Positions 13,963 to 20,199 of a stretch of 64,000 bases of DNA are shown here, one piece after another (position 1 is the stretch's first letter; every line of letters starts with the position of its first letter). Where the stretch lies: positions 288,001 through 352,000 of the forward strand of contig CM000436.1 in assembly GCA_000165345.1 (NCBI GenBank), in the 5' to 3' direction. Below the pieces are notes generated by a model, which saw nothing but the letters and a program-made list of their open reading frames with translations, did no database searches and had not been told where the DNA came from. The translations under genes and the position numbers were made by a program.

Positions 13963-15555
13963 TTAATGAAAGATCATTTCTCCAATAAGAACGGTGATTC
14001 CAAAAAATCGAACTGAGACTTTACTTAGATTAGTATTATCATTACATGAACATTTATTATATGAAACAATTTCTTTTTCAGTTTCAAAATAAAATATGTC
14101 ATCCCTGACACTAAGTAAAATGGCGGGAGAAGCTTCACAATGGTAATAAATCATAAAAGATTGACCAGGAACATTCCAAAATATATTTTTGGAACTTAAA
14201 AGAATTTCATTCAAGAATTTAAGACATTTTACTTTAAGTTTTGTGGAAATTTGTATTGGATATAAACTTGAAAGTAGAGATGTAATAGGTGTGTTACTAT
14301 TACGTCTTGTATTATTTTTAGAAGAAATAGTTGATACAATAATATTACCAATGCTAGGATGAATATTGCAATTAAATGTTGCAGAAGAGATATAAATGGG
14401 TCCATTACATGTATTGTATGTATGATCATGAATAGAAATAGCTTTACATTTAACAGATTCACTGAAAGGGAGTACATGATAAGATTGACCAACTTTAAGT
14501 TGACCATATTCAATATATAATGATGCTTTAAATTCAGATGAAGATACTGAGATGATTTCTAGAATACATGCAGAAAAAGAAGTAAATTGTTTAGATTCTT
14601 TATGACAATGACATTCAATAGGGCGTGGTATAGATCTTTTTGAACTTTGATTAATGCTTGATAGAATTTCAAACAAACTAGGCCCTTGATACCAAGAAGA
14701 AAGTTCTTTGGGAAAGGTGTTATTTTTATCATTAAGAATATTGACTCCATGATATGCACTTATTGGTAAAAAAATAATATTTGAATCATTTTTAATATCA
14801 GCAAGTTCTAAATTTATATAATTACTTATTGTATTAACAATATTTGAATAAACTTGTTCATCCCAATTACATAGATCCAATTTATTAACAGCAAAAATAA
14901 TATTCGATACATCTGCTAGAAGTGAATAAATAATATGTTCAATAGTTTGGCCTTTTTGAAATCCTGAATCAAATCCTGAGCTATCAATAACTACAATAAT
15001 ATTATCAGAAAACATTGATATTGAAAAGCTGTTAGGTATAAATTCAGAATGTCCTGGTGCATCCAATATTGTAACAAGTTTTTTTTCAATCATCATACTT
15101 TTAGCTGATATATTGATTGTAATTCCTCTTTCCCTTTCATCATCACAATCATCAAATATCCAAGCATATGCAAAAGATCCTTTTCCAATGATCTCACTTT
15201 CTTTCTTGTACTTTCTCATCACTCCCTCACTAATTAGTCCCAAACTCACAAATAAATGACCCATCAAAGTTGATTTACCAGAATCAACATGGCCTAACAC
15301 TACACAGCTGTAATTATCTATTGTAGGTGTTGATATTATTTCATTTTTCATCTGAATTTTTACTCCTTTATCCTGATTTTGTTTAGCCACATGTTTTTTA
15401 TCTGTTTGTACTGTAGGTTTTGTCTTTACTGTTTTTGTTATTGTTTCTCTTTCATATGCCACATTATCATCATCATCTGAATAGTAATCAGAGTCATAGG
15501 CATCATAATAATCATCATCTGTCAATTCCACATACTTTGATCGTGTACGTGCCAT
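13963..15555 (-). CDS. HBS1/eRF3-family translational GTPase (EF1-alpha-like) with an acidic Tyr-rich N-terminal extension
   Basis: The track ORF starts at GTG 15561; the first ATG is at 15553-15555 (MARTRSKYVEL). G1 GHVDSGKSTLMGHL, G3 ILDAPGHSEF and G4 AVNKLD motifs are present in EF1A-family spacing. A length of about 530 aa, the N-terminal extension and the divergent C-terminal beta-barrel region fit HBS1/Ski7 or eRF3 rather than EF1A itself. Confidence 0.75.
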   Translation of the reverse strand: MARTRSKYVELTDDDYYDAYDSDYYSDDDDNVAYERETITKTVKTKPTVQTDKKHVAKQNQDKGVKIQMKNEIISTPTIDNYSCVVLGHVDSGKSTLMGHLFVSLGLISEGVMRKYKKESEIIGKGSFAYAWIFDDCDDERERGITINISAKSMMIEKKLVTILDAPGHSEFIPNSFSISMFSDNIIVVIDSSGFDSGFQKGQTIEHIIYSLLADVSNIIFAVNKLDLCNWDEQVYSNIVNTISNYINLELADIKNDSNIIFLPISAYHGVNILNDKNNTFPKELSSWYQGPSLFEILSSINQSSKRSIPRPIECHCHKESKQFTSFSACILEIISVSSSEFKASLYIEYGQLKVGQSYHVLPFSESVKCKAISIHDHTYNTCNGPIYISSATFNCNIHPSIGNIIVSTISSKNNTRRNSNTPITSLLSSLYPIQISTKLKVKCLKFLNEILLSSKNIFWNVPGQSFMIYYHCEASPAILLSVRDDIFYFETEKEIVSYNKCSCNDNTNLSKVSVRFFGITVLIGEMIFH

Positions 15556-15759
15556 TGTCACCTATTGACAGTTTCTTCAACTAATAATAATAATAAACAG
15601 ATAATTATGTTGCTCTGGTTTTGTTATAGATTTGTATTATTCTATATTTCATTCACCCTTTCTTCTTTTTTTACTGATTTTTATTCCACACTTTTATCTT
15701 GTTTTCTTTTTTTACCTTTAATAACGTAATTATAATAAATATATTATTTTAAACAAATG

Positions 15760-16256: not shown

Positions 16257-17556
16257 ATGGAGAGTATAAATAAAAGATCAAATAGAATAGAGTTAGCATT
16301 GGATGATTGGGCAAAGCTCGTGAAAAAATCATATTCAGTAGAAATTGATCAAATTAAAAAGAAACACTCAAAAATATTAAATCAATATAAACCTGATCGA
16401 ACAATATATATGGAAAATGTATTATCATATCAATATACTAAAAATATTTGTTTATTAGCAAGTGAAATAATTCGAAGAAATGGTGTATCATATTTAATAA
16501 TTGATTTCTTGAAACAAATGTTATTTTTAAGAGGTTTTTTTGCATTAACAAAAGACAGTATACTAATGCAACTTACAAGATTTTCAACATATATGAAATT
16601 AGTAGAGGTAAGTTTTCCTATTATTATATTAATAAAGTAAATGAAATAATTACATTTTTATTACTTATTTAAAATATTAGGATGGAATGAATGCTATATT
16701 TGAATCAAATAATAGTCAACATAAATCAACATTAAATATGATCAAGGAAAATAGAAGAAGAATTCTGATATATAATCTTAGAAAAGTTCTAGGGAGTGGT
16801 ATTGGTCTTAAACATGATAAACAACCAGTATTTTATATTAGAGTAGTTGATCTACATTTGAAAACAACTTTATCATTTGGATCAATCAGTGAACTTAGAC
16901 AATTGATTGTTTGGGAATTAGAAAAAGTAATATATTCTTTTTCAGAAATATCAATGAAAGAAAAGAATTTTATATCTCATATTTCATTAGTTTTAGATTT
17001 TAGTGAAATGGGGATTTATACTTGTAAAGTGGAATTTCAATCTTTTATGAGATTAATTTCAGAAATTTTAGATTTTTATTCTCCTTTATTAATTAATACA
17101 ATAATAATTCACAAATCAAAATCTTTAAAAGAGAATTTATGGTATTCTATTGAGCCAATTATTTCATTATTATATGATAGAGAAATTATTACAATTTTTA
17201 CTGATACGGAAGAAGAACTTTGGAAACTTTTGAAACCTATGAATAATGCTATTCTTCATTCAAGGGGTGGATTTATACCAAATACTTGTTTATACCCAGT
17301 TTGTTCTAGATCAACTGTTGTTCCAAATATTGAATTATGTATTCAAAAAGAAAATGATCAACAACATGAAACTTGCAATAAATATTCTACATATAAAAGT
17401 TTCTTTTTATCATTTAAACCAGATTTATCAATTAAAAAATTCATTAATAATTGTGTAAGTATAGAATGTAAATCTATTGATAGATCATATTGGACTGAAG
17501 AACAAAATGTAATAAAGACTGAACAAGTTCAGAAAAATTTTATTTATGATATTTAA
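16257..17556 (+). CDS. CRAL-TRIO (Sec14-like) lipid-binding domain protein, two exons
   Basis: Track ORFs 16257-16640 and 16687-17556 are separated by a 73-nt intron at 16608-16680. Exon 1 ends ...AAA TTA GTA GAG|GTAAGT and the intron ends ...AAAATATTAG|GAT GGA ATG, in frame. The spliced product reads ...TYMKLVE|DGMNAIFE.... Exon 2 carries a Sec14-like fold pattern: KQPVFYIRVVDLHL, ISLVLDFSEMGI, ISEILDFYSPLLINTIIIHKSKSLKENLWYSIEPIISLLYDREIITIF. Compare Sec14 GRPVYFEELGAVNL...IMDLKGISIS...[40 protein letters not shown]. Confidence 0.5.
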
Positions 17557-18881
17557 TGATTGATTGCTCAGTACCCTTAGATATTATATTAATTATTATA
17601 CTAAATTTATAGAATATGTTGCAACAAAAACAATATGATAGTTGAATAATTTATATATTAAATTCAGGCATTTGAGTTAGTTTTTTGTTTGTAATAAAAC
17701 ACTAATAATTGGATTAAAATATGTTTACTTTAAATAGTTTTAATTAATTAAAAATCAACCTGTTTATTTTACTCTTCTATTTCACACTTTTTTTCTACAT
17801 TTATTCTTTTCATTCTATATTATTTTTTTTCTATTATTAATTATTTTGATTCATAATTTACATGCAAAAAGGCGCCAAATAATTGGCGCCACAAACTTTA
17901 TGTCACAATTTAATAGAGGTTAGAACTAGTTGATAAAAAAGAAAAAAGAAAGAAAGAAAGAAATTAGAACACAATATATATGTATTTGGTAGAAAAGGTT
18001 GAGTTATACTTGGAATGCTATAAATATGAACAAGCAGTAAGTTTTAACAAATATATTTTAAATAGTGATCTATTTGTACATTTTCTTTTTTTTTTTGAAA
18101 ATCAAAATATCATATTAATTGAAAAGAGTATAATTAGATCAAATATATATAATAAATATTTATTGTTTTAACTTGTTATATTAGTGTAATTATAATTGAT
18201 TATAAATCAAAAGAATTAGCAAATATAGTAATGGAATGTATTAAGCCTGATTTTATTTTATCTAAAAATACGAAAGATTCAAGAAGAGAAATAATGGTAG
18301 ACAACACAGAATTAATAGTGTAAGTTAACTTTACATGCTTTTTGTTTTTCAGTTTATCAATAACTTCAGTGAAATAGAAAGTTCTAATGTTCAAATTCTA
18401 AGAAAAACAGTAAATGCAATATATGGAGCTTTAATTTTGTCGACTAAAACAATTGAAGAGTTTAGTAATATATAAGAGTGAATTCTTCACAATTTATATC
18501 TTTATTGAATTTGAGTATGAATCAAGTTCTTTAAAAATAGGTCTAATAAGTAAAAAGTATTAATAATAGATATTAATATTCCAATGAAATTTAATAACTT
18601 TTTAAAAATATATATCTTTATGTATGTAAATATATCTATATGCATAAATAAAAATGTTAAAGCTTGGAAATATATAATATTTATCTATTTACCTGTATTC
18701 ATACATATATATAGATAAATAGGTAAATATTTATTAGTTTTATTTCTTTCCACTTGTGAATGGATATTATCCGTGATTATATCAACTTTTCCCCTTCCCC
18801 TCATATTTGGCGCTCAAAGGTACCGTTGTATGTAATAATTTACTGAGGGAAAAAAAGGATTATTAAGCATTAAATAAATAA

Positions 18882-19081: not shown

Positions 19082-20199
<1,118 letters not shown>

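What the first reader, a model, noticed from the sequence alone, without database searches (positions are those of the whole stretch)
16257..17556. Two adjacent ORFs are one CRAL-TRIO/Sec14-like gene joined by a 73-nt intron
ORF 16257-16640 terminates only because it reads through a canonical donor (GAG|GTAAGT at 16608). The next ORF's first Met lies 6 nt after a TATTAG acceptor (16680), in the same phase. The merged 409-aa protein has an N-terminal helical region plus a Sec14-like lipid-binding fold. Calling the two separately would split a phospholipid-transfer protein into two meaningless hypotheticals.
Basis: partly seen in the sequence, partly recalled or inferred. Interest (0 to 1): 0.5.

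Follow-up and report, generated by a model that had tools for sequence, protein, structure and literature searches.

The report
Split Cryptosporidium conoid-fibre Sec14-fold gene
The two ORFs are one two-exon Cryptosporidium parvum gene joined by a real 73-nt intron, which newer genome annotations already show; its Sec14-fold protein is most likely the counterpart of Toxoplasma CF5, a structural protein of the conoid fibres, not a classical lipid carrier.

Summary
Exon 1 is 16257-16607, the GTAAGT...TATTAG intron is 16608-16680 (73 nt, phase 0), and exon 2 is 16681-17556. The product is 408 aa, not 409.

The window is Cryptosporidium parvum. The exact merged protein is already deposited (QOY39864.1 = CPATCC_003918; WRK33860.1). 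Older and some newer annotations still carry the split pair (XP_627020.1, 127 aa; XP_627021.1, 289 aa).

Evidence for the intron:
- Five Cryptosporidium species keep GAG|GTAAGT and YAG|GAYGGNATG at the same codons.
- Their introns are 65-85 nt, frame-breaking, stop-filled and lower in GC than the exons.
- Exon 1 evolves as coding sequence.
- Orthologues in other genera carry both parts in one polypeptide.

Koreny et al. 2021 already list this protein as the reciprocal-best-hit orthologue of TGME49_297180. So gene structure and fold are confirmed and already known. The "phospholipid-transfer protein" label is doubtful. One small point: Zeng et al. 2025 score CF5 as absent from C. parvum, which this locus contradicts.

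The parts
16257..16607 (+). Exon 1 (351 nt, codons 1-117, ends ...YMKLVE). It encodes the N-terminal helices, including the conserved motif GVSYLIIDFLKQMLFLRG.
   Evidence: Codon-position differences between species are 9/7/33 and 23/8/58, and synonymous:nonsynonymous codon changes are 32:13 and 55:20. AF2 pLDDT is 82-91 for aa 60-125.
16482..16535 (+). Exon-1 motif, aa 76-93 (GVSYLIIDFLKQMLFLRG). It aligns with ...RVLEEIRRLLVLRKG... upstream of the CRAL-TRIO domain in TgCF5 and other orthologues, and resembles the LRFLRARKF helix of Sec14p.
   Evidence: Exon-1-only profile hits all fall on HMM positions 60-117, upstream of the domain. hhalign gives P = 0.003 over 41 columns. See also multi-genus alignment A3. 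The resemblance to Sec14p is by eye and only.
16608..16680 (+). Spliceosomal intron: 73 nt, phase 0, GTAAGT...TATTAG, 12% GC, with stops in all three frames.
   Evidence: The position is conserved in five Cryptosporidium species with lengths of 65-85 nt. The deposited CPATCC_003918 model equals the spliced product. Baptista et al. 2022 state that the introns of that annotation are 100% RNA-seq supported.
16608..16613 (+). Splice donor GTAAGT, following GAG (E117).
   Evidence: Invariant GAG|GTAAGT in all five species.
16602..16607 (+). Upstream in-frame GT (GTAGAG). It appears to have been used as the donor in the 406-aa C. tyzzeri model, which lacks 'VE'. It is probably not the real donor.
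   Evidence: Gap at the junction in P0001. The V codon varies synonymously (GTA/GTT/GTC) and VE is kept in all other species.
16675..16680 (+). Splice acceptor TATTAG. The in-frame TAG closes the exon-2 frame immediately upstream.
   Evidence: YAG|GAYGGNATG is conserved in all five species.
16681..17556 (+). Exon 2 (codons 118-408 plus the TAA stop at 17554-17556).
16810..17181 (+). Pfam CRAL_TRIO (PF00650) match, aa 161-284.
   Evidence: 25 bits against a gathering score of 22.6, E = 1.9e-5. 10 of 14 family members match at E <= 10 and 8 at E <= 0.01.
16419..17229 (+). Confidently modelled Sec14/CF5-type module, about aa 55-300, interrupted by the intron. Helix 100-125 crosses the exon junction.
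17230..17553 (+). C-terminal extension, aa 301-408. It contains the family-wide H310/G313 (HSRGGF) motif and the Cryptosporidium-invariant C320, C325 and C375. aa 302-346 are low confidence and helices span 355-407.
   Evidence: Invariant columns; pLDDT profile.

Best explanation
This is one two-exon protein-coding gene of Cryptosporidium parvum (chromosome-8-sized contig; deposited as CPATCC_003918 / QOY39864.1). A 73-nt phase-0 GT-AG spliceosomal intron (16608-16680) is removed from the pre-mRNA, giving a 408-aa protein. Residues ~55-316 form a single Sec14/CRAL-TRIO-type domain. Exon 1 supplies its N-terminal helical lobe and exon 2 its alpha/beta core, so neither ORF alone encodes a foldable unit.

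The protein is the Cryptosporidium orthologue of Toxoplasma CF5 (TGME49_297180). In Toxoplasma, CF5 sits with CF1, SAS6L and CIP3 in the 'bridging complex' between neighbouring tubulin conoid fibres. The most likely role here is therefore a structural or adaptor subunit of the short Cryptosporidium conoid, with the Sec14 fold used as a protein-binding scaffold. Whether its pocket still holds a lipid is open.

Shown here: gene structure, fold, and closest relationship to CF5. Inferred: conoid localisation and a bridging function in Cryptosporidium.
For: Gene structure:
- Exact coordinates and phase.
- Donor and acceptor conserved at the same codons in 5 species, with variable-length, frame-breaking, stop-rich, low-GC, poorly conserved introns.
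- Exon 1 is under purifying selection; third-position and synonymous changes dominate.
- The read-through tails share only 'VS', which is the translation of GTAAGT itself.
- The merged sequence is identical to QOY39864.1/WRK33860.1, and 5 other species have 406-409-aa models.
- Synteny is conserved.
- Baptista et al. 2022 say the introns of the IOWA-ATCC annotation are 100% RNA-seq supported.
- Orthologues from Toxoplasma, Eimeria, Cyclospora, Plasmodium gallinaceum, Siedleckia and others contain the exon-1 motif and the exon-2 domain collinearly in one chain.
- An AF2 helix (100-125, pLDDT about 90) crosses the junction.

Identity:
- Pfam CRAL_TRIO scores 25 bits against a cut-off of 22.6.
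- The only significant PDB sequence hit is TgCF5 (E = 1.3e-8 for the single sequence, 1.1e-10 for the profile), while yeast Sec14p scores 11 bits, E = 1.3.
- Among 1.84 billion representatives only 9 match. The non-Cryptosporidium ones include the Besnoitia and Neospora CF5 orthologues, Selenidium and Eimeria.
- Koreny et al. 2021 S1 Data list this exact sequence as the reciprocal best hit of TGME49_297180. They also list C. parvum reciprocal best hits for CF1, CIP3 and SAS6L.
- TgCF5 localises to the conoid body/fibres and is resolved in the fibre cryo-EM map.
Against: - No RNA data could be examined directly here.
- Sequence identity to TgCF5 is only about 18-21%, and TgCF5 is twice as long (871 aa), with N- and C-terminal regions absent here. 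Interactions made by those regions cannot be conserved.
- Zeng et al. 2025 score CF5, CF1 and CIP3 as absent from C. parvum.
- The Cryptosporidium conoid is short, and its fibre architecture is not resolved at this level.
- No localisation or functional data for the Cryptosporidium protein were found.
- TgCF5 knockout has no plaque phenotype on its own, so its function is only loosely defined even in Toxoplasma.
- The AF2 model has moderate overall confidence (mean pLDDT 70), built from a 15-sequence alignment.
Confidence: 0.85

Rival explanations
1. There are two independent genes, as in the C. parvum Iowa II RefSeq annotation: a 127-aa hypothetical protein (16257-16640) and a 289-aa Sec14d protein starting at ATG 16687.
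For: Both ORFs are open with ATG starts. They are deposited separately in several annotations: XP_627020.1/XP_627021.1, WKS79362/3, KAL5366843/4, C. hominis CUV07658/9 and C. bovis.
Against: - Only 46 nt separate the ORF1 stop from the ORF2 ATG.
- The ORF1 tail after the donor is not conserved beyond the GTAAGT translation.
- Splice signals are invariant in 5 species while the spacer varies in length and frame.
- M120 is not kept in C. muris or C. andersoni (VEKSINS).
- Orthologues in other genera carry both parts in one chain.
- Exon 2 alone would lack the N-terminal lobe of the Sec14 fold.
Confidence: 0.02
2. It is the same gene, but the intron starts 6 nt earlier (donor GTAGAG at 16602). 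This gives a 406-aa protein lacking V116-E117, as in the C. tyzzeri model TRY50114.1.
For: The 406-aa C. tyzzeri model has exactly this 2-residue gap. The upstream GT is in frame and present in all species, because valine codons begin with GT.
Against: GTAAGT is the invariant consensus at the downstream site in all 5 species, whereas the upstream hexamer varies (GTAGAG/GTTGAG/GTCGAG). That variation is synonymous for Val-Glu, meaning these two codons are translated. All other species' models keep VE.
Confidence: 0.04
3. It is a soluble Sec14-type phospholipid transfer protein. It would exchange PtdIns/PtdCho or another lipid between membranes.
Against: - Sec14p headgroup-binding residues map to non-equivalent residues: R65/K66 to F94/F95, Y151 to L197, S173/T175 to I218/L220, E207 to L253, T236/K239 to Y282/E285. 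Only Y122 keeps an aromatic. The alignment has low identity, so this is indicative only.
- There is no CRAL_TRIO_N sequence match.
- The characterised orthologue is a stably incorporated cytoskeletal component.
- Non-phospholipid ligands, as in alpha-TTP or CRALBP, cannot be excluded.
Confidence: 0.12

Closest known systems
C. parvum IOWA-ATCC gene CPATCC_003918 (QOY39864.1; also WRK33860.1), 'CRAL-TRIO lipid binding/Sec14d domain containing protein'
   Same: The sequence is identical to the merged 408-aa product, so the exon-intron structure is the same.
   Different: Nothing differs; this is the same gene. The older Iowa II RefSeq models XP_627020.1 and XP_627021.1 are its two halves.
Toxoplasma gondii CF5 (TGME49_297180), PDB 9y9z chain J1: conoid-fibre bridging-complex subunit
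   Different: Identity is about 18-21%. TgCF5 is 871 aa with long N- and C-terminal extensions that are absent here. The Cryptosporidium protein has its own ~90-aa Cys-containing tail. Localisation and partners are untested in Cryptosporidium. Zeng et al. 2025 list no C. parvum orthologue.
Canonical Sec14/CRAL-TRIO lipid carriers (yeast Sec14p/Sfh1/Sfh5, human SPF/SEC14L2, alpha-TTP, CRALBP)
   Different: Sequence similarity is marginal (11 bits). There is no CRAL_TRIO_N match. The PtdIns/PtdCho 'barcode' residues are mostly replaced. The nearest characterised relative is cytoskeletal rather than a soluble carrier.
Other short Cryptosporidium spliceosomal introns (mean 84-99 nt, 22% GC; Isaza et al. 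2015)
   Same: It has GT-AG ends with a GTAAGT donor, is short (73 nt) and AT-rich (12% GC). Neighbouring genes in the window and in orthologous loci use the same GTAAGT donor.
   Different: Nothing unusual. It is slightly shorter and more AT-rich than the published mean.

Membership tests
Spliceosomal GT-AG intron | GT...AG boundaries with a consensus donor | tested here: met
   GTAAGT at 16608-16613 and TATTAG at 16675-16680.
Spliceosomal GT-AG intron | Removal restores one continuous reading frame whose product matches full-length homologues | tested here: met
   The 408-aa product has no internal stop. It is identical to QOY39864.1 and collinear with 406-409-aa orthologues and with multi-genus orthologues.
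Spliceosomal GT-AG intron | Position conserved in orthologues while the intron sequence, length and frame are not | tested here: met
   Five species; 65-85 nt; mod 3 = 1,2,2,1,1; stops in nearly all frames; interior identity 0.27-0.64 against 0.54-0.90 in the exon flanks.
Spliceosomal GT-AG intron | Spliced junction observed in RNA | not testable with these tools
   No RNA data were available here. The indirect support is that Baptista et al. 2022 state the introns of the IOWA-ATCC annotation, which contains this model, are 100% RNA-seq supported.
CRAL-TRIO / Sec14 domain (Pfam PF00650) | Sequence match above the Pfam gathering score | tested here: met
   25.0 bits against 22.6, aa 161-284. 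This is marginal. 8 of 14 family members match at E <= 0.01.
CRAL-TRIO / Sec14 domain (Pfam PF00650) | Sec14 fold (helical N-lobe plus beta-sheet-floored alpha/beta lobe) | tested here: met
   [not shown]
CRAL-TRIO / Sec14 domain (Pfam PF00650) | CRAL_TRIO_N (PF03765) N-terminal region detectable by sequence | tested here: not met
   No hit at E <= 10 in the C. parvum protein or any of 14 family members. Helices are present in the model, and an LFLRG motif resembles Sec14p FLRAR by eye only.
Sec14-type PtdIns/PtdCho transfer proteins | Conserved PtdIns (R65, K66, E207, T236, K239) and PtdCho (Y111, Y122, Y151, S173, T175) binding residues of Sec14p | tested here: not met
   In the pairwise/HMM alignment, 8 of 9 alignable positions are replaced by non-equivalent residues; only Y122 keeps an aromatic (F168, Y in most species). 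Treat this as indicative.
Sec14-type PtdIns/PtdCho transfer proteins | Lipid binding or transfer activity | not testable with these tools
   This needs biochemistry.
CF5 (TGME49_297180) orthogroup, conoid-fibre bridging complex | CF5 is the closest relative by sequence among all proteins and structures | tested here: met
   It is the only significant PDB hit. In the 1.84-billion representative library, the only non-Cryptosporidium hits are the Besnoitia and Neospora CF5 orthologues, Selenidium, Eimeria and one canonical CRAL-TRIO protein.
CF5 (TGME49_297180) orthogroup, conoid-fibre bridging complex | Reciprocal best hit with TgCF5 | not testable with these tools
   I had no C. parvum or T. 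gondii proteome for the reverse search. It is published: CryParIOWAATCC003452_rbh_TGME49_297180 in Koreny et al. 2021 S1 Data has this exact sequence.
CF5 (TGME49_297180) orthogroup, conoid-fibre bridging complex | Structural match to the resolved CF5 module, clearly better than to generic Sec14 proteins | tested here: met
   [not shown]
CF5 (TGME49_297180) orthogroup, conoid-fibre bridging complex | Full-length architecture of TgCF5 (871 aa with long N- and C-terminal regions) | tested here: not met
   The C. parvum protein is 408 aa. Only the central module (Tg ~279-534) aligns.
CF5 (TGME49_297180) orthogroup, conoid-fibre bridging complex | Localisation to conoid fibres and contact with CF1/SAS6L | not testable with these tools
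   Shown only for Toxoplasma. C. parvum reciprocal best hits for CF1, CIP3 and SAS6L exist in Koreny's data.

The most novel reading that the evidence does not exclude
Cryptosporidium may retain a minimal version of the whole conoid-fibre bridging complex (CF5, CF1, CIP3, SAS6L), even though the 2025 structural study scores CF5, CF1 and CIP3 as absent from C. parvum. Its 408-aa CF5 would then define the conserved core of the family: a bare Sec14 module plus a short tail. A further, more speculative step is that the Sec14 pocket still binds a lipid (for example phosphatidic acid or a phosphoinositide), coupling lipid signalling to conoid mechanics during invasion.
Probability: 0.15. Interest if true: 0.5.

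Novelty: already known. Interest (0 to 1): 0.15.

Why it matters
In practice this is an annotation issue. The C. parvum Iowa II RefSeq models and several later annotations (C. parvum WKS/KAL entries, two C. hominis annotations, C. bovis) still split the gene. The C. tyzzeri model appears to use the wrong donor. Split or truncated models can hide orthology. That may be why the paper naming CF5 lists no C. parvum counterpart, although one exists at this locus. For Cryptosporidium cell biology, the gene is a candidate marker or component of its poorly characterised short conoid. None of this is surprising to a specialist, since both the merged model and the orthology call are already public.

Tried and rejected
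- All three word-indexed homology searches (single sequence, Cryptosporidium profile, multi-genus profile) returned only Cryptosporidium proteins. They could not supply distant relatives.
- The first AF2 run, on six close orthologues, was unusable (pLDDT 40).
The run that worked (A4) used representatives.
- The exon-1-only HMM gave individually insignificant hits apart from Siedleckia. Only the consistent location and hhalign P = 0.003 give modest support.
- Pfam CRAL_TRIO_N was negative. The weak SAM_KSR1 and YacG hits are below threshold and were dismissed.
- I tried to link the 127-aa ORF to 'cgd8_3800' in Isaza et al. 2015 Table S1, which lists ORFs that are really exons of neighbouring genes. 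No link could be established. C. hominis models CUV07658/9, which from memory belong to the same group's UdeA01 annotation, are still split, so it is probably a different locus.
- Literature searches for the accession numbers found nothing.
- GTAAGT frequency in the window is not enriched, so it was not used as evidence.
- There are no tRNAs in the window.

Full report
**1. Observation**

The window is AT-rich (28% GC). ORF 16257-16640 (127 aa) and ORF 16687-17556 (289 aa) lie on the + strand in different frames.

- GAG ends at 16607, and GTAAGT occupies 16608-16613.
- TATTAG ends at 16680.
- 16681-16689 reads GAT GGA ATG.
- Exon 1 is exactly 117 codons and the intervening 73 nt (12% GC) carry stops in all frames.
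- Removing them gives a 408-aa ORF.

Everything else is exact.

**2. Is the intron real?**

GTAAGT is not over-represented in the window (18 observed against about 23 expected), so the hexamer alone proves nothing. The decisive evidence is comparative.

I fetched the orthologous loci of C. ryanae, C. bovis, C. canis and C. ubiquitum. Gene order is the same in all: an EF-Tu-like GTPase on the opposite strand, then this gene, then (where annotated) Pcc1, then a cytidylyltransferase.

- All five species have GAG|GTAAGT after the same codon (...VE) and YAG|GAYGGNATG at the acceptor.
- The sequence in between is 73, 68, 65, 76 and 85 nt long (mod 3 = 1,2,2,1,1).
- It has stops in nearly every frame and is always lower in GC than the exons.
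- Its interior is 27-64% identical between species, against 54-90% for the adjacent exon sequence.

Exon 1 evolves like coding DNA. Differences by codon position are 9/7/33 (parvum-ubiquitum) and 23/8/58 (parvum-canis). Synonymous:nonsynonymous codon changes are 32:13 and 55:20.

The peptide a read-through would add is not conserved: VSFPIIILIK*, VSE*, VS*, VSFLILWFNK*. The shared 'VS' is simply GTA-AGT translated.

The valine codon before the donor varies synonymously (GTA/GTT/GTC). V116-E117 are therefore translated, and the donor is 16608. It is not the in-frame GT at 16602 that the 406-aa C. tyzzeri model appears to use.

**3. It is already annotated**

An exact-sequence look-up shows that the merged 408-aa protein is deposited for C. 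parvum as QOY39864.1 (CPATCC_003918) and WRK33860.1. Both are named 'CRAL-TRIO lipid binding/Sec14d domain containing protein'.

Full-length 406-409-aa models exist for C. hominis, C. meleagridis, C. tyzzeri, chipmunk genotype I, C. ubiquitum, C. canis and C. ryanae.

- XP_627020.1/EAK89335.1 (127 aa, hypothetical) and XP_627021.1/EAK89334.1 (289 aa, Sec14d) in the Iowa II annotation;
- WKS79362/3 and KAL5366843/4 in C. parvum;
- CUV07658/9 and KAL3126333/4 in C. hominis;
- the C. bovis pair.

Baptista et al. [quoted passage not shown] Isaza et al. 2015 report mean C. parvum intron length of 84-99 nt and 22% GC, so this intron is typical.

**4. What the protein is**

Pfam CRAL_TRIO matches aa 161-284 at 25.0 bits (gathering score 22.6). 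CRAL_TRIO_N does not match, either here or in any of 14 family members.

Against PDB sequences the only significant hit is 9y9z chain J1, 'CF5, TGME49_297180'. It scores E = 1.3e-8 with the single sequence and 44 bits, E = 1.1e-10, with a Cryptosporidium profile. Yeast Sec14p scores 11 bits, E = 1.3.

A full HMMER scan of 1.84 billion representatives found only nine matches. Outside Cryptosporidium these are Besnoitia and Neospora proteins (the latter matching at the same coordinates as TgCF5), the archigregarine Selenidium, Eimeria, and one canonical tandem CRAL-TRIO protein.

Koreny et al. 2021 localised TGME49_297180 to the conoid body and noted its CRAL-TRIO domain. Their S1 Data list 'CryParIOWAATCC003452_rbh_TGME49_297180', whose sequence is identical to the merged protein. 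They also list orthologues from other Cryptosporidium species, coccidia, gregarines, Rhytidocystis, Nephromyces and avian Plasmodium.

Zeng et al. 2025 resolved the protein in the conoid-fibre cryo-EM map and named it CF5. They placed it with CF1, SAS6L and CIP3 in a 'bridging complex' between neighbouring fibres. Single knockout gave no plaque defect.

**5. Do both exons belong to one domain?**

Using the published orthologue sequences, a profile of exon 2 hits every orthologue (24-53 bits). A profile of exon 1 alone gives weak hits. The best or near-best hit in seven of the ten orthologues falls on the motif region (HMM positions 60-117, centred on GVSYLIIDFLKQMLFLRG) and always upstream of the CRAL-TRIO region.

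Profile-profile comparison of exon 1 with those upstream flanks gives P = 0.003 over 41 columns. In the multi-genus alignment the splice junction lies inside a segment that is continuous in every other genus.

AlphaFold2 on six close orthologues failed (pLDDT 40). With a 15-sequence alignment that included distant relatives it gave pTM 0.70, with aa 55-300 mostly at pLDDT 80-93. Helix 100-125 runs straight across the junction at 117|118.

- The next best hits are SPF 11.9, Sfh5 11.6, alpha-TTP 10.7, AtSFH5 10.6, CRALBP 10.3 and Sfh2 10.0.
- Foldseek agrees: E = 2.2e-8 against 2.9e-4 or worse.

Exon 2 supplies only about 216 confidently ordered residues. A 255-residue superposition must therefore include exon-1 helices (inference). 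So the Sec14-type module spans both exons, and neither ORF alone is a complete domain.

**6. Function**

Mapping Sec14p ligand-binding residues through the weak alignment shows most are replaced:
- R65/K66 to F94/F95
- Y151 to L197
- S173/T175 to I218/L220
- E207 to L253
- T236/K239 to Y282/E285
- Y122 keeps an aromatic

This evidence is indicative only.

Together with the much closer relationship to a stably incorporated cytoskeletal protein, this makes 'phospholipid-transfer protein' an unsafe label. The better-supported reading is a structural or adaptor subunit of the Cryptosporidium conoid.

C. parvum reciprocal best hits for CF1, CIP3 and SAS6L are also present in Koreny's data, so the partners plausibly exist. 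Localisation, partners and any ligand remain untested in Cryptosporidium. The protein lacks the long N- and C-terminal regions of TgCF5 (871 aa).

**7. A small discrepancy worth recording**

**8. Verdict**

The feature is an ordinary short Cryptosporidium intron in a gene whose merged model and orthology are already public. Novelty: already known. Interest: low.

Noticed in passing
[not shown]
   Followed up: partly
window 17980-18475 (+): A small Pcc1-like gene with two short introns. GTAAGT donors sit at 18037 and 18320. The last exon encodes ...SEIESSNVQILRKTVNAIYGALILSTKTIEEFSNI*. ORF listing breaks it into 63-aa and 46-aa pieces. The orthologous loci carry a Pfam Pcc1 gene here.
   Followed up: partly
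window ~19100-20199 (+): ORF 19396-20199 (267 aa) corresponds to a CTP_transf_like (cytidylyltransferase) gene that is 339-345 aa in the orthologous loci. A GTAAGT at 19106 suggests an upstream exon and another intron.
   Followed up: no
window 13963-15561 (-): A divergently oriented neighbour is an EF-Tu-type translational GTPase (Pfam GTP_EFTU 117.8 bits) with an acidic, Tyr/Asp-rich N-terminus. It looks HBS1/eRF3-like by eye. Its position is conserved in all four orthologous loci.
   Followed up: no
L002 2564-2941 and 3001-3858 (C. bovis); C. tyzzeri TRY50114.1: The C. bovis annotation still splits the orthologue into 125-aa and 285-aa genes, although the same GAG|GTAAGT...TTTAG|GATGGAATG intron (65 nt) is present. 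The C. tyzzeri model (406 aa) drops V116-E117, probably through a mis-called donor.
   Followed up: yes
window 17230-17553 (aa 301-408): The C-terminal tail has Cryptosporidium-invariant C320, C325 and C375, plus the family-wide H310/G313 (HSRGGF). aa 302-346 are modelled with low confidence. A sub-threshold YacG (zinc-finger) Pfam hit at aa 377-402 was dismissed. A small metal-binding or partner-binding element is not excluded.
   Followed up: no
Koreny et al. 2021 S1 Data, file 96: CF5-family orthologues are listed for the avian malaria parasites P. gallinaceum and P. relictum. None is given for mammalian Plasmodium in the paper's Table 1, which hints at lineage-specific loss within Plasmodium.
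   Followed up: no
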